Assembly (NCBI GenBank): GCA_045105615.1
Contig: JBGCDS010000027.1
Span: 3,036-67,035 of the forward strand
DNA from: Gammaproteobacteria bacterium
GTDB taxonomy: Bacteria > Pseudomonadota > Gammaproteobacteria > UBA4575
Length of the DNA: 64,000 bases
Direction: 5' to 3'
The notes under the pieces: generated by a model
Seen by the model: the letters and a program-made list of their open reading frames with translations, nothing else
Told to the model about the DNA's origin: nothing
Database searches by the model: none
Part shown: one piece after another, positions 51,160 through 57,541 of the stretch
Layout: the number at the start of each line of letters is the position of its first letter
Position numbering within the stretch: the stretch's first letter is position 1
Position numbers and translations under genes: made by a program

Positions 51160-51540
51160 CTAAAACAACTCAGCTGCAAGGAAGGCAAAGAAAAATCCAA
51201 CTAGGTAAACAAGAATTGAAAAAATCAATACCATCCAATTGAACCTCCTCAGTCTTGCACATGCTTTAGCCTGCTTCACCTCTGCTGGGCATGCTTGATT
51301 TCTCGCTCGCCACTGAACAACGGCTGACATCAACAAAAGCAATCCTGCCGCTAAGAATACAATTTCTTTATATTCCGAGATTGTAATCAACCAAGGCGCA
51401 GCTGACACCAGACCAGCAAGCGCTGCTCCCATTCCCACAGTGACAAACAAGGCAGGAAGCGCACAGCAAACTAATGTGCTCACGCTGCCAAACAAACTTA
51501 ACGTAGGTAGTAGCACTTGTTTATACGCGTTATCCACCAC
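51160..51540 (-). CDS. MerT-like heavy-metal transport inner-membrane protein
   Basis: 3 TM; vicinal CC in TM1 (LVCCALPA); second Cys pair ACPAEVKQAKAC; aligns with Tn501 MerT topology. Confidence 0.7.
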   Translation of the reverse strand: MVDNAYKQVLLPTLSLFGSVSTLVCCALPALFVTVGMGAALAGLVSAAPWLITISEYKEIVFLAAGLLLLMSAVVQWRARNQACPAEVKQAKACARLRRFNWMVLIFSILVYLVGFFFAFLAAELF

Positions 51541-51832
51541 GGCGAATCTCCTCTATATTATACCCAGCATCAACAATATTTTTATGAATAACAGCATCAT
51601 TTAATTGCTGTCCTTTCTTCAAGTGAATAGTGACAATTTTCTCATCGAGATTCACATCGATACCATCCACCGCAACTTCTTTACCAAACACTTTCTCCAA
51701 TGCTTGAGCACAAAAATCACACACAAGCCCATAGATACTAACTTCTATCGTACCTTCTGAATGTTGAGAAAAAGCATTATTTGAAAACAAGCCGACAAAC
51801 AAAGCTAACATCATTATTAATTTTTTCATCAT
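51530..51832 (-). CDS. MerP-like periplasmic heavy-metal-associated (HMA) domain protein
   Basis: signal peptide; GLVCDFCA metal-binding loop. Confidence 0.7.
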   Translation of the reverse strand: MMKKLIMMLALFVGLFSNNAFSQHSEGTIEVSIYGLVCDFCAQALEKVFGKEVAVDGIDVNLDEKIVTIHLKKGQQLNDAVIHKNIVDAGYNIEEIRRGG

Positions 51833-51845
51833 TATTCCTTATTAA

Positions 51846-52484
51846 TTAAAAGCGAACCGCCCAATTGAGCAGAACATCTCTATTACTACTAATTCCCGCC
51901 TCAAATCTGTGAACATCCTTTAAAAGACGTACCAATGGCGTTAGCGTAATATTATTTTCACTCTCAGGTATATGCTCCACCTCAACCATTAACCAAGCAT
52001 GCAAAGCACCATAGTCTGCAATGTAAGGCGCCATACCGACTCGCACCCTTTGCATAAAAAAATCATCCAGGCTTCCTGCCTCCAAGTAACGATTTTCATA
52101 GGATATAAAATACTCTCGCGATTCCCAATCACCAGAAATACCGGAAAATATAGCTATTTTAGAATCATTCTCTAAACGACTAGAGTTACGATCGGCATAT
52201 CCAATGCCAGACTTAAGATAAAGATTCATTTGCGAATCTTTTTTATTCCACCGCTTAACGAGATTATTAAGCTGAAAACCCGTCAACAAATACTCTCCGG
52301 CACGACGATATTCTGATCTGATCCCAAGCGAGTATTTTGCCGAGGGCGAATAATGCAACAACACTGAATGCTCATCACCATTGTTACTTATATCAGCGGT
52401 AACACCACCAGGATATGAAACAGGGCGAGCCAATGAACACTGTGCAGAAAGACTAAGCACAATAAGTACTAATAACATTCTCAT
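51846..52484 (-). CDS. hypothetical outer-membrane beta-barrel-like protein
   Basis: signal peptide; alternating amphipathic strands; C-terminal ...LNWAVRF. Confidence 0.5.
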   Translation of the reverse strand: MRMLLVLIVLSLSAQCSLARPVSYPGGVTADISNNGDEHSVLLHYSPSAKYSLGIRSEYRRAGEYLLTGFQLNNLVKRWNKKDSQMNLYLKSGIGYADRNSSRLENDSKIAIFSGISGDWESREYFISYENRYLEAGSLDDFFMQRVRVGMAPYIADYGALHAWLMVEVEHIPESENNITLTPLVRLLKDVHRFEAGISSNRDVLLNWAVRF

Positions 52485-52561
52485 TATTTTTCTCCTGAAA
52501 AATATTTTTATTCATCGCCTTATTTAACGGCGATGCAAACTGAGCTAATTACGCTCAAATA

Positions 52562-52909
52562 TCAGGAGATATAGATAGGAGGACGATATAGAGAAGAGAA
52601 ATATTTTGAATTAGCATATTCATCAATGACGATAAAACGCTGTTGATGCATATTAAGCACATTTAAATTACCTAATTCAAAGAATGGTGTTTGACCGGTT
52701 GAATATATGAAACAAAAACATGCATCTTTACAATGCTCATCATTCTCATTCTGCTGCTCGTCATGACATGGCATATCTGACTCAGCAAGCACTTCAGATT
52801 GAAGATCATTGATTTCTATCTGTTGCATGCACAGCATCAGCTCTGCCGACGCGATGAGCGTATTAGCAATAAATACCAAGCTAACAATATATAAAACAAT
52901 GTTTTTCAT
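52562..52909 (-). CDS. hypothetical exported Cys/His-rich protein
   Basis: signal peptide; PCHDEQQNENDEHCKDACFCF cluster. Confidence 0.4.
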   Translation of the reverse strand: MKNIVLYIVSLVFIANTLIASAELMLCMQQIEINDLQSEVLAESDMPCHDEQQNENDEHCKDACFCFIYSTGQTPFFELGNLNVLNMHQQRFIVIDEYANSKYFSSLYRPPIYIS

Positions 52910-53002: not shown

Positions 53003-53278
53003 TTAAACAGACTGACGCGCTTTTATTGCCAGTGCTACCAATGCCTCCCGAACCTGCTTAGGGGTTTCACACTTCCTGGCAAAATCAATTCTAAGTCTTT
53101 CGCCGTTAGCTAACATCTCAAATCCCACACTATCAATCCTAAGCATTTTTGGATCCTCATTAAGTGTAGTCACTCCATTCAACTGACAATAGTCACGCAT
53201 GGCATCAACATGGTCTTCATTAATATGAGCAATCATATGTTGCTCAGTTTCTTCATCGAATTTAGTCATAAAACCCAT
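53003..53278 (-). CDS. DUF2470-like small protein
   Basis: HINEDHVDAMRDYC motif; ~90 aa from MGFMTKF start. Confidence 0.45.
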   Translation of the reverse strand: MGFMTKFDEETEQHMIAHINEDHVDAMRDYCQLNGVTTLNEDPKMLRIDSVGFEMLANGERLRIDFARKCETPKQVREALVALAIKARQSV

Positions 53279-53403
53279 ACTTAATTGTGTCGAAAAATAT
53301 CGCTTCACCATACCTAGTATTTTATAAATTATCAGCAATATCAGTTGCGAATATTGTTTATTTAAGTTACTAAACTAACTGGAATCATTTGTGGAGCAGT
53401 TAA

Positions 53404-53718
53404 ATGATATTAACCAATATCGAAGAGGTCCCTGGCAAGAGAATTCTTGAGCATTATGGCTTAGTACAAGGCAATACCATACGCGCCAAACATGTAGGCA
53501 AGGATATCTTAGCTAGCATTAAAAATATCTTTGGGGGTGAATTAGCCGCGTACACTGAACTCCTTTCAGAGTCACGCAAAGAAGCAACCGATCGCATGAT
53601 CCAACAGGCTGAAGCAATGGGAGCCAATGCGATAATCAATATACGTTATAGCACTTCTTCAGTAGCACAGGGCGCTGCCGAACTTTACGCTTACGGCACA
53701 GCGGTACGAGTCGAATAA
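53404..53718 (+). CDS. ybjQ: YbjQ/UPF0145-family protein (putative heavy-metal-binding domain)
   Basis: 104 aa; ..GGELAAYTELLSESRKEATDRMIQQAEAMGANAIINIRY.. typical YbjQ. Confidence 0.75.
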   Translation: MILTNIEEVPGKRILEHYGLVQGNTIRAKHVGKDILASIKNIFGGELAAYTELLSESRKEATDRMIQQAEAMGANAIINIRYSTSSVAQGAAELYAYGTAVRVE

Positions 53719-54200
53719 TGCTAGACATTATTATTCTCATTTCCCTATTGGGACTTGGCTATTACTTTGGCCAGCGCGCTGAAAAAAAACATTATAAATC
53801 GATCATTGAGCGTGAAAACCAGCTGATTAATTTACCACTAATTACTTTAAAAACACCTCCACCGATAAAACAGTATGAAGTTAATGCTGCACTAGTCACT
53901 GGCAGTGTTGTAATTTCTATCGACTTTTTTAAAAAGTTTATAGCCTCATTGAAAATGCTATTTGGAGGCCGGCTAACAACATATGAATCCTTATTAGACC
54001 GTGCACGTAGAGAAGCTTTATTACGCTTAAGAGAACAGGCCAAAATACGCAAAGCATTTGTTGTTCTAAACACACGCATTGAAACCGCTTCTATTAGCAA
54101 AAGCAGCGGACGTCGAGAAGGTAGCGTAGGTTCAATCGAAGTAGTCGCTTATGGCACTGCTATAAGCATGACGAATCGGCGCCGAAACATCGCCTCATGA
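53718..54200 (+). CDS. membrane-anchored YbjQ-family paralogue
   Basis: N-terminal TM (IIILISLLGLGYYF) then YbjQ-like core (FGGRLTTYESLLDRARREA...); start overlaps upstream stop. Confidence 0.6.
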   Translation: MLDIIILISLLGLGYYFGQRAEKKHYKSIIERENQLINLPLITLKTPPPIKQYEVNAALVTGSVVISIDFFKKFIASLKMLFGGRLTTYESLLDRARREALLRLREQAKIRKAFVVLNTRIETASISKSSGRREGSVGSIEVVAYGTAISMTNRRRNIAS

Positions 54201-55042
54201 AATACGTCCCGTCTCAGCCACCAGAAGGAATAAACGTTTCCAAGGAACACCCGTTAAAGTCATTCTTTATTCTCTCAACCGGCACGGTCGCTTCTATATT
54301 TATTATCTTATTCGTTATTAGTTTATTTGCAGATTTTATTGTTAGCTTCATCCCTGTTGAATACGAGCGTGCGTTATTTGAAAACAGAAATATTGGCGAC
54401 TTAATCACAGACAGTAAAACCGAAACGTCAGATGAAATTCAGCAGTATCTACAAACACTAGTCGATTCACTTCATGAACAGGGTGGAGATAAATATAACG
54501 ATCATCAGTTCAAAGTCAGCCTAAGCCCAATGCCTCAACCCAATGCTTTTGCAGCACCGGGCGGCCACATTGTTGTCACCTATGGATTACTCAGAAGTGT
54601 TAATTCAGAAAATGGTTTAGCCATGGTACTTGCCCATGAAATTGGCCACCATTATGAAAGACACCCACTTAGAGGACTAGGAAGAGGTTTAGTCATGGCT
54701 TTCTTCTTATCGGCAATATCAGGATTTGAGATTGGAGGTTATGCAGATAAGTTTGTAGAAAGAACCGCCTTCATTGGACAGCTCGCCTATAGCCGAAAAC
54801 AAGAAACTGACTCAGACAATATTGCGATAGATTTGTTACAAAAAAAGTATGGCCATGCTTATGGTGCCAGTGAATTTTTCAGATACATAAAAAATTCCAG
54901 CGAAAACAATAGCGAACCACCGATATTCTTAAGCACGCACCCTTCCACACAAGAACGCTTAAGCTATTTAAAGAAAATGGAACGAAAAAATTATGGCGAC
55001 AAAAAAAATATCCCTAAAAACATTCTAGAAAAATTGCCATAG
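54197..55042 (+). CDS. M48-family zinc metallopeptidase with N-terminal TM segment
   Basis: HEIGHHYERH HExxH; overlapping start with upstream gene. Confidence 0.75.
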   Translation: MKYVPSQPPEGINVSKEHPLKSFFILSTGTVASIFIILFVISLFADFIVSFIPVEYERALFENRNIGDLITDSKTETSDEIQQYLQTLVDSLHEQGGDKYNDHQFKVSLSPMPQPNAFAAPGGHIVVTYGLLRSVNSENGLAMVLAHEIGHHYERHPLRGLGRGLVMAFFLSAISGFEIGGYADKFVERTAFIGQLAYSRKQETDSDNIAIDLLQKKYGHAYGASEFFRYIKNSSENNSEPPIFLSTHPSTQERLSYLKKMERKNYGDKKNIPKNILEKLP

Positions 55043-55070: not shown

Positions 55071-55250
55071 CTAGTGAATAGTTTCCATAGTTGCTTCATC
55101 TACACTCATCAATTTCCATTCGCTAGTTAAACCCATATCTTCATTAGCAGCACCATAATAAAGCGCACCGCTTTCAGTCACCGCTAAATAATACGCATTG
55201 TTTGCGTCATCTTTTTCAAGCAACAAGTAACCATCATTCATTACTAACAT
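55071..55250 (-). CDS. possible unannotated small acidic protein (59 aa, below ORF-track cutoff)
   Basis: ATG..TAG ORF MLVMNDGYLLLEKDDANNAYYLAVTESGALYYGAANEDMGLTSEWKLMSVDEATMETIH read from reverse strand; fills otherwise empty 300-bp gap. Confidence 0.25.
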   Translation of the reverse strand: MLVMNDGYLLLEKDDANNAYYLAVTESGALYYGAANEDMGLTSEWKLMSVDEATMETIH

Positions 55251-56197: not shown

Positions 56198-57541
56198 TTA
56201 TTTAATCGTAGGCTTGAGCAATGACATTAATTCTCCAGAGATAGACCTCAAGTGCAGATCTCTTTGAGGATAAGGAATTTCAATTTTATGCTCATGAAAT
56301 TTATTCCATAACACCAACAACACTTGGCTTTTTACATTCGAGCAACCATTCATTGGATCTCGAACCCATATTCTAATTTCAAGGTCGACAGAATTATCGC
56401 CAAAGCCTTTTAACAAACATGCAGGCTTTGGCATGTTCAAAACGCGATCAACTTCGCCAGCAGCGTCAAGACAAAGTTCAATTGCTTTATTCACATCAGT
56501 CTTATAGTGAACACCCACAGGAATTCTTAAGCGTACATTTTCATGACTGTATGACCAATTTTCCACGCGATTAATAATCATCTCTTCGTTTGGCACAAGA
56601 TGTTCAATACCATCACGCGTAATCACTGATACATAGCGCGCACTCAGTGTATCTACACGACCGTAACTACCTTCCACATTAATTGTATCCCCAGGTTTGA
56701 TTGATTTATCCAGCAACAATATAAAACCAGAAATTAAATTAGAGAAAATCTTCTGCAGACCAAAACCTATTCCTACACCAATTGCACCACCAAGCACAGC
56801 AAACGCAGTTAGATCTATTCCTACGGTACTTAACCCGAAAATAAATGCGGCAGCGACTAATGCAAATTTAAATGTTTTAGAAAGAAGCGCTCGTGCGGAG
56901 GGAGTTATATTGCTACTACCCCTAAGAATATTATCTACTAACTTAATTAACGCAAAGGCTATCCACAAAAATATAGCGATTGATAATAACGATGAAACTA
57001 TTGCATATAGAGAAATACTCGCCTGCCCTGCATTAATTTTTGTTTTATCTAGAAATTCAACAACAGGAGACAGATAACCAAGAATATTTAATGCGGCAAT
57101 CACCCAAATCACCGCGGCGACTGCACGGCTAATCAATGGATTATCGATAAAAGACGAACCAAGCCTAATAACAAACCATGCTACGGTTAAACTCATTGCA
57201 GTGGATAGCAATGGCCACGGATGTTTTAGCACAATGTAAATCACCGTAAACAACCCAACCCAAGCAAACATCAACAATGGGAAAATCAATCTTCGCAGTG
57301 TTGCGAATAAGTATCTTCGCGTGCGAGATGTATAACTAACTTCCCATCCTGAAATATACGCACGCAGATTTTTAGACACATAAAGCGCAGCAAAAAACCC
57401 AATCACTATAATCCCTAACTCTATAAGCGATTGGTAATTCAATATTTCTTTATCGAGCAAACCCACGACTCGATCAGTCGCTTTCTCTATCGCTTCACCT
57501 GTTAAAAGGTCATCGATTTTAGGTGGGGCTGTCTCTGGCAT
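56198..57541 (-). CDS. mechanosensitive ion channel, MscS family
   Basis: 447 aa; multi-TM N-domain, conserved MscS pore/beta domain (GDTINVEGSYGRVDTLSARYV). Confidence 0.85.
   Translation of the reverse strand: MPETAPPKIDDLLTGEAIEKATDRVVGLLDKEILNYQSLIELGIIVIGFFAALYVSKNLRAYISGWEVSYTSRTRRYLFATLRRLIFPLLMFAWVGLFTVIYIVLKHPWPLLSTAMSLTVAWFVIRLGSSFIDNPLISRAVAAVIWVIAALNILGYLSPVVEFLDKTKINAGQASISLYAIVSSLLSIAIFLWIAFALIKLVDNILRGSSNITPSARALLSKTFKFALVAAAFIFGLSTVGIDLTAFAVLGGAIGVGIGFGLQKIFSNLISGFILLLDKSIKPGDTINVEGSYGRVDTLSARYVSVITRDGIEHLVPNEEMIINRVENWSYSHENVRLRIPVGVHYKTDVNKAIELCLDAAGEVDRVLNMPKPACLLKGFGDNSVDLEIRIWVRDPMNGCSNVKSQVLLVLWNKFHEHKIEIPYPQRDLHLRSISGELMSLLKPTIK

What the first reader, a model, noticed from the sequence alone, without database searches (positions are those of the whole stretch)
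53003..55042. DUF2470-like gene followed by a translationally coupled YbjQ, membrane-anchored YbjQ and M48 peptidase operon
Two YbjQ (UPF0145, 'putative heavy-metal-binding') paralogues are present. The second has an N-terminal TM helix. They are followed, with overlapping start and stop codons, by a membrane-anchored HExxH M48 metallopeptidase. The strict coupling suggests a complex. A soluble YbjQ plus a tethered YbjQ feeding or regulating an M48 protease is not a described system. It lies next to the MerT/P-like module, so the 51.1-55.0 kb region may form a metal- or envelope-stress island.
Basis: partly seen in the sequence, partly recalled or inferred. Interest (0 to 1): 0.5.

Follow-up and report, generated by a model that had tools for sequence, protein, structure and literature searches.

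The report
Conserved YbjQ pair with membrane M48 protease
Three tightly coupled genes (a soluble YbjQ protein, a membrane-tethered YbjQ protein and a membrane-anchored M48 zinc protease) form a self-contained operon conserved across distant bacterial phyla and sometimes fused, which gives the long-uncharacterised YbjQ family its first solid functional partner.

Summary
YbjQ1 (53404-53718), TM-YbjQ (53718-54200) and M48 (54197-55042) overlap by 1 and 4 nt.

- **Conservation:** across 99 loci holding a TM-YbjQ, a soluble YbjQ lies upstream in 92/92 assessable cases and an M48 downstream in 95/97. No fourth gene recurs.
- **Breadth:** the triad persists at 33-39% M48 identity (Omnitrophota, Gracilibacteria).
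- **Fusions:** two lineages fuse TM-YbjQ and M48 into one protein.
- **Core pair:** Acinetobacter baumannii and Haliovirga carry the YbjQ pair without the protease, so the pair is the older core.
- **Topology:** both YbjQ domains and the conserved 21-aa M48 N-tail are cytoplasmic. The catalytic domain faces the periplasm (OMA1-like). This rests on charge bias, on variants with a signal peptide, and on the two-TM fusions.
- **Protease:** it keeps the zinc ligands plus BepA's HPx4R autoinhibitory plug and a hydrophobic lid.

Best reading: a trans-membrane protease complex docked on a cytoplasmic YbjQ platform. The docking and any regulation are inferred, not shown. The metal-island reading is not supported. 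No paper in the searchable library links YbjQ to M48.

The parts
53404..53718 (+). YbjQ1: soluble 104-aa UPF0145/YbjQ protein, no hydrophobic segment and no signal peptide, so cytoplasmic. First gene of the operon; GGAG SD at 53393-53396.
   Evidence: Pfam PF01906 E 1.6e-37. PDB pentamers 1vr4/2gtc E 2.4e-14. No TM-like segment in 14 of 14 homologues. Present upstream of TM-YbjQ in 92/92 assessable loci.
53718..54200 (+). TM-YbjQ: 160-aa membrane-tethered YbjQ paralogue, 35% identical to YbjQ1 over the domain. Start overlaps the YbjQ1 stop (TAATG).
   Evidence: 2105 homologues. AF2 model pLDDT 78.9: helix 2-35, then YbjQ fold 54-152. Foldseek best matches are 1vr4 and 1y2i.
53721..53822 (+). 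TM helix (aa 2-20) continuing into a juxtamembrane helix (aa 21-35). One conserved face runs along it: L10, G14, G18 (GxxxG), E22, H25, I29, R32/E33. Orientation is N-out/C-in.
   Evidence: K+R in 15-aa flanks is 0.02 (N side) vs 4.75 (C side), with the C side richer in 100% of 100 sequences having a scored TM segment, and 0.04 vs 4.09 in 114 diverse representatives. Invariant columns. Conservation periodicity peaks at 3.6 residues. The stripe is also present in the M48-less Acinetobacter and Haliovirga proteins.
53853..54167 (+). YbjQ domain of TM-YbjQ (aa 46-150), cytoplasmic.
   Evidence: Pfam stretch 46-150. Invariant GG, Y89/E90, LLDRARREA and AYGTA motifs.
54197..55042 (+). M48 zinc metallopeptidase, 281 aa, single-pass membrane anchor. 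Start overlaps the TM-YbjQ stop (ATGA).
   Evidence: Pfam PF01435 E 2.5e-30. AF2 pLDDT 78.3. Foldseek 3c37 E 1.5e-8 and BepA 6ait E 9.6e-8. Profile vs PDB: 3c37 E 2.9e-40, BepA E 1.2e-23.
54197..54259 (+). Conserved M48 N-terminal tail (aa 1-21, consensus MKYxPxxxPEGINVSxEHPLK; N13 invariant, M1 and L20 at least 90%). Inferred cytoplasmic docking peptide.
   Evidence: In the fusions P0242 and P0303 this motif follows the YbjQ domain directly with no TM between them.
54260..54343 (+). M48 transmembrane helix (within AF2 helix 19-49); inferred orientation N-in/C-out.
   Evidence: Orientation is deduced from the two-TM fusions; the charge bias alone is inconclusive (1.34 vs 1.24).
54635..54649 (+). 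HEIGH catalytic motif (H147, E148, H151, all invariant).
54668..54736 (+). Hydrophobic segment aa 158-180, aligned with the BepA alpha6-lid region. It passes a TM-like hydrophobicity threshold in 91 of 119 homologues, but it aligns within the crystallised soluble chain of 3c37.
   Evidence: (low-pLDDT blocks 161-200). Lid concept from PMC13655028.
54803..54817 (+). E203 (third zinc ligand) to D207 of the SRxQExxxD motif; D207 aligns with BepA D205, which holds the plug in place.
   Evidence: Invariant Q202, E203, D207. Alignment to BepA. Role of D205 from PMC13655028.
54938..54958 (+). HPx4R motif (H248, P249, R254, all invariant), corresponding to the BepA autoinhibitory plug H246/P247/R252. 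It is preceded by the only very-low-confidence loop of the model (aa 239-246).
   Evidence: PMC13655028.
53003..53269 (-). DUF2470 gene (88 aa from the ATG at 53269). Divergent neighbour, NOT part of the conserved module.
   Evidence: Pfam E 8.7e-16. Found only in L001 and L002 among 99 loci. Separated from the triad by another gene in L002 and absent in L020.

Best explanation
The three genes encode one conserved, autonomous inner-membrane protease module.

Shown:
- The gene order YbjQ1, TM-YbjQ, M48 is conserved across distant phyla, with overlapping stop and start codons.
- At least two lineages fuse TM-YbjQ and M48 into a single polypeptide.
- The YbjQ1 plus TM-YbjQ pair also exists without the protease, so the pair is the older core and the M48 a frequent add-on.

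Inferred with good support (topology):
- TM-YbjQ is N-out/C-in, so both YbjQ domains sit in the cytoplasm.
- The M48 is N-in/C-out. Its conserved 21-residue N-tail is cytoplasmic, next to the C-terminus of the tethered YbjQ domain.
- Its BepA-type catalytic domain faces the periplasm close to the membrane. This is the same layout as mitochondrial OMA1.

Inferred (mechanism):
- YbjQ-family proteins crystallise as pentamers, and a relative here consists of five tandem YbjQ domains. I therefore propose that YbjQ1 and TM-YbjQ build a pentamer-based platform on the inner face of the membrane. It would be held by a bundle of the long TM/juxtamembrane helices through their conserved GxxxG-E-H face.
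- This platform would dock the M48 N-tail and TM helix.
- The protease keeps every element of the BepA autoinhibition system: the HPx4R plug with H248, D207, and a hydrophobic lid. So it is probably latent.
- The cytoplasmic platform most likely organises or oligomerises it, or gates its activation from the inside, for quality control or regulated cleavage of envelope or inner-membrane proteins.
- Substrate and activating signal are unknown.

The confidence of 0.5 is for the whole statement. Taken separately I would put the conserved functional module at about 0.9, the topology at about 0.8, and the platform-regulates-protease mechanism at about 0.4.
For: Anatomy and coupling.

Conservation:
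- YbjQ1 upstream in 92/92 and M48 downstream in 95/97 assessable loci, among 99 loci and 83 non-redundant contexts.
- The triad is found starting from the M48 side at 33-39% identity, in Omnitrophota and others, and in Gracilibacteria, a Sericytochromatia-labelled MAG and Methylophaga.
- Flanks are unrelated, and no family occurs in more than 3 of 111 nearest neighbours.

Fusions:
- P0242 (442 aa, two ~41-kb contigs) and P0303 (410 aa, 7 contigs from several samples, alternative genetic code). Both have YbjQ1 upstream, and both domains are confirmed by Pfam.

Topology:
- Extreme positive-inside bias for TM-YbjQ.
- YbjQ1 has no signal peptide.
- Relatives P0300, P0308 and P0352 carry an N-terminal hydrophobic segment, read by eye as a cleavable signal peptide, plus a ~180-200-aa domain before the TM. 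P0300 is still followed by a start/stop-coupled M48.
- The fusions have exactly two TM segments, with the YbjQ domain between them and HExxH after the second.

Protease competence and latency elements:
- Invariant H147, E148, H151, E203, D207, H248, P249, R254.
- Alignment to BepA and the BepA mechanism in PMC13655028.

Pentamer:
- PDB entries 1vr4, 2gtc and 1y2i each hold five chains and are described as pentamers in PMC4092069.
- P0259 has five tandem YbjQ domains.

Helix-packing stripe.

OMA1 layout and matrix-side N-terminal sensor: PMC8027119.
Against: - No experiment and no complex prediction was possible. Physical contact between the M48 tail and the YbjQ proteins is inferred only from the fusions, the coupling and the conservation.
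- The M48 TM orientation is not resolved by charge bias (K+R 1.34 vs 1.24). It rests on the fusion argument.
- The YbjQ1:TM-YbjQ stoichiometry, and whether they form a hetero-pentamer or stacked rings, is unknown.
- The conserved helix face is also present in M48-less pairs, so it is not specific evidence for M48 docking.
- Two of 97 loci lack the M48, as do Acinetobacter and Haliovirga. The pair therefore has a function of its own that this model does not explain.
- The sampled loci are biased towards relatives at 48-60% identity from marine and sediment metagenomes.
Confidence: 0.5

Rival explanations
1. All-cytoplasmic arrangement. The M48 is N-out/C-in, so its catalytic domain sits beside the YbjQ domains on the cytoplasmic face. 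It would act like HtpX in inner-membrane protein quality control, with the YbjQ oligomer as adaptor or regulator touching the protease domain directly.
For: Charge bias around the M48 TM is neutral. The M48 family includes cytoplasm-facing members such as HtpX, with weak HtpX hits. A direct domain-to-domain contact would be the simplest reading of the tight coupling.
Against: In the fusions only about 35-45 residues, containing the M48 N-tail motif and no TM segment, separate the end of the YbjQ domain from the second TM. The protease domain follows that TM, so the two domains must lie on opposite sides. The YbjQ domain is cytoplasmic by positive-inside bias in 100% of sequences. A conserved K/R directly precedes the M48 TM and acidic residues follow it. 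The closest sequence and structure relatives are 3c37 and BepA, not HtpX.
Confidence: 0.1
2. The YbjQ proteins are heavy-metal-binding proteins that sense or deliver metal to the M48, and the operon belongs to a metal- or envelope-stress island together with the neighbouring MerT/P-like genes.
For: The Pfam name for PF01906 is 'putative heavy-metal-binding'. An HMA-domain protein with a CxxC motif and a CC-motif membrane protein lie 1.2-2.2 kb away. An invariant E22-x-x-H25 pair on the juxtamembrane helix could in principle bind a metal.
Against: The metal module is absent from close relatives L002 and L020, which keep the triad. No metal-related family recurs among 111 nearest neighbours. Neither window YbjQ protein contains a cysteine, and H25 is the only invariant histidine of TM-YbjQ. 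The MerP model scores far below its cut-off and MerT gives no hit. Triads sit in housekeeping contexts such as aroA-cmk-rpsA. No functional paper on YbjQ was found.
Confidence: 0.07
3. Co-regulated but not physically associated. The YbjQ pair and the M48 act independently in the same stress response, and adjacency reflects shared regulation only.
For: The pair occurs without the M48 in Acinetobacter, Haliovirga, L082 and L097. In L107 the M48 is convergent and not co-directional.
Against: There are independent gene fusions in two lineages. Stop/start overlaps are conserved. The cytoplasmic N-tail of the M48 is strongly conserved yet has no catalytic role. Co-occurrence is about 98% despite completely unrelated flanks.
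Confidence: 0.1
4. Mobile or conflict system: a toxin-antitoxin, anti-phage defence or abortive-infection module in which the protease is an effector.
For: It is a compact three-gene cassette with variable flanks. One instance is on a 297-kb Haliovirga plasmid.
Against: No PADLOC match for any of the proteins. Only 5 records were found in 72,556 plasmid records, and 3 of those are mislabelled Acinetobacter chromosomes. Neighbours are often housekeeping genes. No integrases or transposases recur. The viral collections were not searched.
Confidence: 0.03

Closest known systems
OMA1 (mitochondrial inner-membrane M48 protease)
   Same: Same overall layout as inferred here: N-terminus on the matrix/cytoplasmic side, membrane anchor, M48 domain facing the intermembrane space/periplasm. 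OMA1's N-terminal segment on the inner side is required for stress activation, and OMA1 works as an oligomer (PMC8027119). PMC13655028 reports a homologous hydrophobic lid in OMA1.
   Different: OMA1 has no YbjQ partner; its N-terminal sensor is a positively charged, loosely structured domain. Here the N-tail is a short, sequence-conserved PEGIN-type motif paired with two dedicated YbjQ proteins. Orthology to OMA1 was not tested.
BepA (E. coli periplasmic M48 protease) and the Geobacter M48 structure 3c37
   Same: Closest solved folds and sequences. Identical zinc ligands, HPx4R autoinhibitory plug, the D205-equivalent aspartate, and a hydrophobic alpha6-lid region.
   Different: BepA is soluble, carries a C-terminal TPR domain and docks on BAM at the outer membrane. 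This protein has no TPR domain, is only 281 aa, has an N-terminal inner-membrane anchor, and scores 71.8 bits against BepA's 570-bit cut-off.
E. coli/Shigella YbjQ and B. cereus BC_1816 (UPF0145, PDB 1y2i, 1vr4, 2gtc)
   Same: Same Pfam family and fold for both YbjQ1 and the TM-YbjQ domain. Pentameric crystal assemblies.
   Different: The solved proteins are stand-alone soluble proteins of unknown function. Here a soluble copy is obligatorily paired with a membrane-tethered paralogue that has a conserved juxtamembrane helix, and usually with a protease.
Operons pairing an oligomeric membrane scaffold with a membrane protease (HflK/C-FtsH; stomatin-NfeD/STOPP)
   Same: The concept is the same: a membrane-anchored oligomeric accessory protein encoded with, and organising or regulating, a membrane protease. 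This comparison rests on my own knowledge and was not tested here.
   Different: Unrelated folds (SPFH versus YbjQ) and different protease classes. In those systems the scaffold and the protease domain are generally on the same side of the membrane, whereas here they are on opposite sides.
Acinetobacter adeIJK-adjacent YbjQ pair
   Same: The same soluble-plus-tethered YbjQ gene pair, with the GxxxG-E-H helix face conserved. PMC10132057 notes it as conserved downstream of adeK in three Acinetobacter species.
   Different: No M48 follows; convergent unrelated genes do. The paper only notes the two genes as a synteny landmark and assigns no function.

Membership tests
YbjQ_1 / UPF0145 (PF01906) | Profile match above Pfam's gathering score | tested here: met
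   YbjQ1 128.7 bits and TM-YbjQ 70.3 bits against a cut-off of 23.
YbjQ_1 / UPF0145 (PF01906) | YbjQ alpha/beta fold as in 1vr4 and 1y2i | tested here: met
   Foldseek on the TM-YbjQ model: 1vr4 E 4.9e-6, 1y2i E 6.8e-6, probability 1.00. YbjQ1 sequence match to 1vr4 E 2.4e-14.
YbjQ_1 / UPF0145 (PF01906) | Pentameric assembly | not testable with these tools
   Only single-chain prediction is available. Indirect support: five chains per PDB entry, pentamers reported in PMC4092069, and a five-tandem-domain relative, P0259.
YbjQ_1 / UPF0145 (PF01906) | Heavy-metal binding (the Pfam label) | tested here: inconclusive
   Neither window protein contains a cysteine. The only invariant histidine of TM-YbjQ is H25, outside the YbjQ domain. 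No metal genes are enriched nearby.
Peptidase M48 (PF01435) | Profile match above the gathering score, and the M48 fold | tested here: met
   106.2 bits against a cut-off of 20.3. Foldseek to 3c37 and BepA with probability 1.00.
Peptidase M48 (PF01435) | HExxH plus a downstream Glu as zinc ligands | tested here: met
   H147, E148, H151 and E203 are invariant in 25 diverse homologues and aligned to the BepA motifs.
Peptidase M48 (PF01435) | HPx4R autoinhibitory plug motif and its anchoring Asp | tested here: met
   H248, P249, R254 and D207 are invariant. Motif definition from PMC13655028.
BepA (NF052400 equivalog) | Full-length match including the C-terminal TPR domain; soluble periplasmic protein | tested here: not met
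   71.8 bits against a cut-off of 570; only model positions 99-254 of 483 are matched. The protein is 281 aa with an N-terminal TM helix.
HtpX (several NCBIfam equivalogs) | Full-length match; multi-TM inner-membrane protease with a cytoplasmic active site | tested here: not met
   Best HtpX score is 29.9 bits against cut-offs of 245-422. A single TM helix in the model. The catalytic domain is inferred to be periplasmic.
LoiP/YcaL-type M48 lipoproteins (NF052399) | Lipoprotein signal peptide and a family-level score | tested here: not met
   35.9 bits against a cut-off of 365. The N-terminus is a 21-aa polar tail followed by a TM helix, with no lipobox.
OMA1-like architecture (works-like comparison, not orthology) | N-in single membrane anchor with the M48 domain on the outer (IMS/periplasmic) side | tested here: met
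   Deduced from the two-TM fusions and the TM-YbjQ topology. This is computational inference only.
MerT/MerP mercury transport (neighbouring genes) | Equivalog-level match to MerP (TIGR02052) and to MerT | tested here: not met
   MerP 24.6 bits against a cut-off of 92.55. The 126-aa CC-motif protein has no MerT hit in Pfam or NCBIfam. Only a generic HMA domain is present (24.9 bits against 24.8).
HugZ haem oxygenase (for the DUF2470 gene) | Full-length HugZ equivalog match | tested here: not met
   40.8 bits against a cut-off of 240, matching only model positions 2-77 of 243. It is a stand-alone DUF2470 domain.
Known anti-phage defence systems (PADLOC) | Match of any component to a PADLOC model | tested here: not met
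   No hits for any of the four proteins.

The most novel reading that the evidence does not exclude
The tethered and soluble YbjQ proteins form a pentameric transmembrane device: a five-helix TM bundle with a conserved GxxxG-E-H stripe, capped by a cytoplasmic YbjQ ring. It would transmit a cytoplasmic state (a ligand, an ion or membrane energisation) across the inner membrane to unlock an autoinhibited periplasmic M48 protease. That would make it a bacterial, two-component counterpart of OMA1's inside-out stress activation, and the first assigned function for the UPF0145 family. In lineages without the M48 the same platform would drive other outward-facing modules, such as the ~200-aa external domain fused in P0300-type proteins.
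Probability: 0.2. Interest if true: 0.8.

Novelty: new variant of a known kind. Interest (0 to 1): 0.58.

Why it matters
YbjQ/UPF0145 is a widespread family with crystal structures released in 2005 and still no reported function in the papers searched. This locus shows that a large branch of it (about 300 clusters at 50% identity) exists as an obligatory soluble-plus-tethered pair. That pair is genetically welded, up to gene fusion, to a distinct single-pass M48 protease carrying the full BepA-type autoinhibition apparatus.

This turns an open question into concrete experiments: topology mapping, co-purification, plug mutants (H248A) and tail deletions. How membrane-anchored M48 proteases such as OMA1 are switched on from the far side of the membrane is also unresolved, and a simple bacterial three-gene system with the same layout could serve as a tractable model. 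Finally, the pair sits directly next to adeIJK in Acinetobacter baumannii, a clinically relevant locus.

Tried and rejected
1. **P0016 (258 aa) as a YbjQ1::TM-YbjQ fusion.** Rejected. Its middle section is an out-of-frame translation, so it is a frameshift or gene-calling artefact.
2. **A fourth conserved partner.** All-against-all clustering of flanking ORFs gave only antisense shadow ORFs of the triad. A Pfam census of 111 nearest neighbours found no family in more than 3.
3. **Efflux-transporter association.** AdeIJK, MMPL, MatE and ABC-2 neighbours seen suggested this. It is not supported by the census.
4. **Positive-inside rule for the M48 TM.** Inconclusive. Orientation had to be taken from the fusions.
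5. **A second TM helix in the M48.** The hydrophobic segment at aa 158-180 was considered as one. Rejected, because HExxH and E203 would then lie on opposite sides of the membrane, and the segment aligns within the crystallised chain of 3c37 and with the BepA lid.
6. **Rfam search of 51.0-56.5 kb for a riboswitch or leader.** Nothing credible.
7. **Promoter/terminator scan.** No more sites than in shuffled sequence.
8. **PADLOC.** No hits.
9. **The 59-aa convergent ORF (55071-55250) as a hidden component.** It is present only in the three closest relatives.
10. **Literature.** No paper combines YbjQ with M48. A co-evolution preprint pairs PF01906 only with a recombinase domain and calls the pairing uninterpretable.
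12. **Not searched.** The viral contig collection and the E. coli genome collection.


Full report
**1. What is in the sequence**

- On the plus strand: YbjQ1 (53404-53718, 104 aa), TM-YbjQ (53718-54200, 160 aa) and an M48 peptidase (54197-55042, 281 aa).
- On the minus strand: a DUF2470 protein (ORF 53003-53338). The likely true start is the ATG at 53269, giving 88 aa, as in the closest relative.
- Pfam confirms all four: DUF2470 E 8.7e-16, YbjQ_1 E 1.6e-37 and E 2.5e-19, Peptidase_M48 E 2.5e-30.
- Read directly from the DNA, YbjQ1 and TM-YbjQ share TAATG, and TM-YbjQ and M48 share ATGA. Only YbjQ1 has a clear Shine-Dalgarno (GGAG, 7 nt upstream). The two downstream genes therefore look translationally coupled.
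- The two YbjQ paralogues are 35% identical over the domain.

**2. Is the triad conserved?**

Yes, strongly.
- TM-YbjQ has 2105 homologues in the word-indexed search. An exhaustive profile search found 3171 cluster representatives at E<=1e-3 and 300 at E<=1e-30.
- Gene neighbourhoods of homologues at 58-66% identity show YbjQ(91-104 aa), TM-YbjQ(141-151 aa), M48(280-286 aa) in three unrelated contexts: after MatE, after an ABC-2 exporter, and after egtB/egtD-like genes.
- Genome loci from a Gracilibacteria chromosome, a Sericytochromatia-labelled MAG and an unclassified bacterium also carry the triad. The Methylophaga contig ends inside TM-YbjQ and shows only the pair.
- Starting instead from the M48 at only 33-39% identity, the same triad appears in an Omnitrophota MAG and two other contexts.
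- After a metagenome scan I scored all 99 loci holding a TM-YbjQ. A YbjQ1-type gene lies directly upstream in 92 of 92 loci with room to tell, and an M48 directly downstream in 95 of 97.
- The two exceptions are genuine: a RimK-like gene or an unrelated gene follows.
- Nothing else travels with the triad. Clustering of flanking ORFs yields only antisense shadows. In a Pfam census of the 111 nearest neighbours from 83 non-redundant loci, no family occurs more than three times.
- DUF2470 occurs in only the two closest relatives.

**3. The pair is the core; the protease is a frequent third member**
- In A. baumannii the genes directly after adeK encode a 116-aa YbjQ and a 144-aa TM-YbjQ, followed by convergent unrelated genes.
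- A published comparison notes these two YbjQ genes as conserved downstream of adeIJK/adeXYZ in three Acinetobacter species, without assigning a function (PMC10132057).
- On a Haliovirga abyssi replicon the pair is followed by TetR and an MMPL transporter.

**4. Gene fusions**

Among the representatives, P0242 (442 aa) and P0303 (410 aa) contain both PF01906 and PF01435.
- Both have the layout TM helix, YbjQ domain, about 35-45 residues that include the M48 N-tail motif (…PAGINISNDSPLKEF…), a second TM helix, then the M48 domain with HExxH and HPx4R.
- P0242 lies on two ~41-kb contigs with a YbjQ1 gene overlapping its start.
- P0303 lies on seven contigs from several samples, again with YbjQ1 upstream. 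It comes from an organism with an alternative genetic code, seen as Trp at conserved Gly positions and as failure to translate under table 11.
- These are therefore real and independent fusions, which is classical evidence for a physical or functional link.
- An apparent YbjQ1::TM-YbjQ fusion, P0016, is a frameshift artefact.

**5. Topology**
- TM-YbjQ has essentially no residues before its TM helix and a highly basic stretch after it. Mean K+R is 0.02 vs 4.75 in close homologues and 0.04 vs 4.09 in 114 diverse representatives, and the C-side is richer in 100% of sequences. It is therefore N-out/C-in, with a cytoplasmic YbjQ domain.
- YbjQ1 has no hydrophobic segment at all, so it is cytoplasmic too.
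- Independent support comes from relatives P0300, P0308 and P0352. They carry an N-terminal hydrophobic segment, which I read by eye as a cleavable signal peptide, and a ~180-200-aa domain ahead of the same TM-YbjQ unit. In the P0300 locus the triad is intact, with the M48 start overlapping the stop.
- For the M48, the charge bias is neutral (1.34 vs 1.24). The fusions decide the question: with exactly two TM segments and the YbjQ domain between them, the protease domain must lie on the side opposite the YbjQ domain, which is the periplasm or cell exterior.
- The conserved 21-residue M48 N-tail is therefore cytoplasmic. Its consensus is MKYxPxxxPEGINVSxEHPLK, with N13 invariant. In the fusions it is covalently next to the C-terminus of the tethered YbjQ domain.

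**6. The protease**
- The AF2 model (pLDDT 78.3) shows a disordered tail, one long helix (residues 19-49) and a compact domain.
- Its best structural matches are the Geobacter M48 3c37 and E. coli BepA. ZMPSTE24 and BlaR1 match far more weakly. The family profile hits 3c37 at E 2.9e-40 and BepA at E 1.2e-23.
- It is not BepA: there is no TPR domain, and it scores 71.8 against a 570-bit cut-off. It is also not HtpX or LoiP.
- Invariant residues include the zinc ligands H147, E148, H151 and E203. They also include D207 and H248-P249-x4-R254.
- The latter residues align with BepA D205 and the HPx4R motif H246/P247/R252. According to PMC13655028 these form the autoinhibitory plug, in which H246 is a fourth zinc ligand, held in place by R252 and D205.
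- The only very-low-confidence stretch of the model (residues 239-246) sits just before H248, where the BepA plug loop lies.
- The hydrophobic segment at residues 158-180 aligns with the BepA alpha6-lid region. It passes a TM-like hydrophobicity threshold in 91 of 119 homologues. The same paper reports that homologous lids are predicted in the membrane-bound M48s LoiP, YcaL and HtpX and observed in Ste24/ZMPSTE24 and OMA1.
- The enzyme therefore looks catalytically competent but latent.

**7. The tethered YbjQ helix**
- AF2 predicts one continuous helix over residues 2-35, followed by a linker and the YbjQ fold. The fold matches 1vr4, 1y2i and the pentameric DUF74 protein 3qkb.
- Conservation along residues 6-35 has a sharp spectral peak at 3.6 residues. 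This defines one conserved face: L10, G14, G18 (a GxxxG motif), E22, H25, I29 and R32/E33.
- This is what a helix-packing interface looks like. Because it is kept in the M48-less Acinetobacter and Haliovirga proteins, it more likely mediates self-assembly of the platform than M48 docking.
- YbjQ-family crystal structures are pentamers (PMC4092069; five chains per entry). The relative P0259 is five tandem YbjQ domains in one chain. Both point to a pentamer as the functional unit.

**8. Best-supported mechanism**
- Shown: a conserved, autonomous, translationally coupled and occasionally fused three-gene module.
- Inferred with good support: the opposite-side topology, with two cytoplasmic YbjQ domains plus the M48 tail inside and the protease outside.
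- Inferred: YbjQ1 and TM-YbjQ build a pentamer-based platform under the membrane that docks the M48 tail and TM helix. It would either organise several protease copies or control release of the autoinhibitory plug from the inside.
- The closest functional analogy is OMA1. Its M48 domain faces the intermembrane space, its matrix-side N-terminal segment is required for stress activation, and it acts as an oligomer (PMC8027119).
- Substrates and the activating cue remain unknown. The independent function of the pair in M48-less genomes is not explained.

**9. What is not supported**
- The 'metal- or envelope-stress island'. The four minus-strand genes at 51160-52909 encode a CC-motif membrane protein, a secreted HMA protein with CxxC, a 212-aa secreted protein and a weak CopL-like protein. 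They are present in L001 but absent in L002 and L020, which keep the triad.
- The MerP and MerT labels fail their model cut-offs.
- There is no sequence hint of soft-metal binding in the YbjQ proteins.
- No defence-system match and no RNA element.

**10. Novelty and score**
- NCBI annotates the identical proteins only as 'YbjQ family protein' and 'M48 family metallopeptidase'.
- No paper in the searchable library links the two families.
- The components belong to known families, and the general principle of a membrane protease with an oligomeric accessory is known. The YbjQ partnership, the opposite-side architecture and the fusions are new. I rate it a new variant of a known kind, with interest 0.58.
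- The main value is that it gives the UPF0145 family a concrete, testable role, and offers a simple bacterial model for inside-out control of an OMA1-like protease.

Noticed in passing
window 51160-52909 (minus strand): A four-gene putative metal module. It comprises a 126-aa membrane protein with a CC motif in its first TM and a CPx8C tail, a secreted 100-aa HMA protein with GLVCDFC, a 212-aa secreted protein with no family hit, and a 115-aa weak CopL-like protein. It is present in L001 but missing from L002, where SDR and DUF2470 are adjacent, so it is a recent insertion or deletion unrelated to the triad.
   Followed up: partly
L101 4589-5381 (A. baumannii NZ_CP104448.1) and L100 3631-4408 (Haliovirga abyssi pHIC): The soluble-plus-tethered YbjQ pair occurs without any M48, directly after adeK in A. 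baumannii and before TetR-MMPL in Haliovirga. The pair therefore has a protease-independent function. Its position next to the main RND efflux operon of Acinetobacter may deserve a phenotype test.
   Followed up: partly
P0300 / L106 3001-4194; also P0308, P0352, P0313: Variants of the tethered YbjQ with an N-terminal hydrophobic segment that looks like a signal peptide, plus a ~180-200-aa extracytoplasmic domain with no Pfam match. In L106 this is still flanked by YbjQ1 and a start/stop-coupled M48. The external domain would share a compartment with the protease domain.
   Followed up: partly
P0259 (627 aa), from the representative search: A single polypeptide of five tandem YbjQ domains (Pfam 467 bits, 5 stretches), effectively a covalent pentamer. 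P0370 has four stretches.
   Followed up: no
P0375 / L107 3001-4873; P0372: TM-YbjQ proteins with a ~200-aa C-terminal multi-TM extension of unknown family. In L107 the M48 gene is convergent and overlaps the 3' end of that gene call, which is an unusual rearrangement of the module.
   Followed up: no
window 55071-55250 (minus strand): A 59-aa acidic ORF convergent with the M48 3' end. It is conserved (64-83% identity) in the three closest relatives L001, L002 and L020 but nowhere else among the fetched loci. It looks like a real lineage-specific small gene of unknown function.
   Followed up: yes
window 56198-57541 (minus strand): A 447-aa protein that I take to be an MscS-family mechanosensitive channel from its sequence; this was not tested. 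It is syntenic with the triad in close relatives (92% and 85% identity in L001 and L020). An unrelated MS_channel gene also lies two genes downstream of the triad in the Omnitrophota locus L016. This is probably coincidence.
   Followed up: partly
PLSDB records NZ_CP104448.1, NZ_CP077849.1, NZ_CP064203.1: Three 3.6-4.1 Mb A. baumannii records in the plasmid collection are evidently chromosomes mislabelled as plasmids.
   Followed up: no
L103-L105 (P0303 loci) and L006: The fusion-bearing contigs do not translate to the recorded protein under table 11, and they show Trp where Gly is conserved (for example FWGR in place of FGGR). This indicates a UGA-recoding lineage (code 25 or 4, Gracilibacteria/Absconditabacteria-like). 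The triad therefore reaches the candidate phyla radiation, which lacks an outer membrane.
   Followed up: partly
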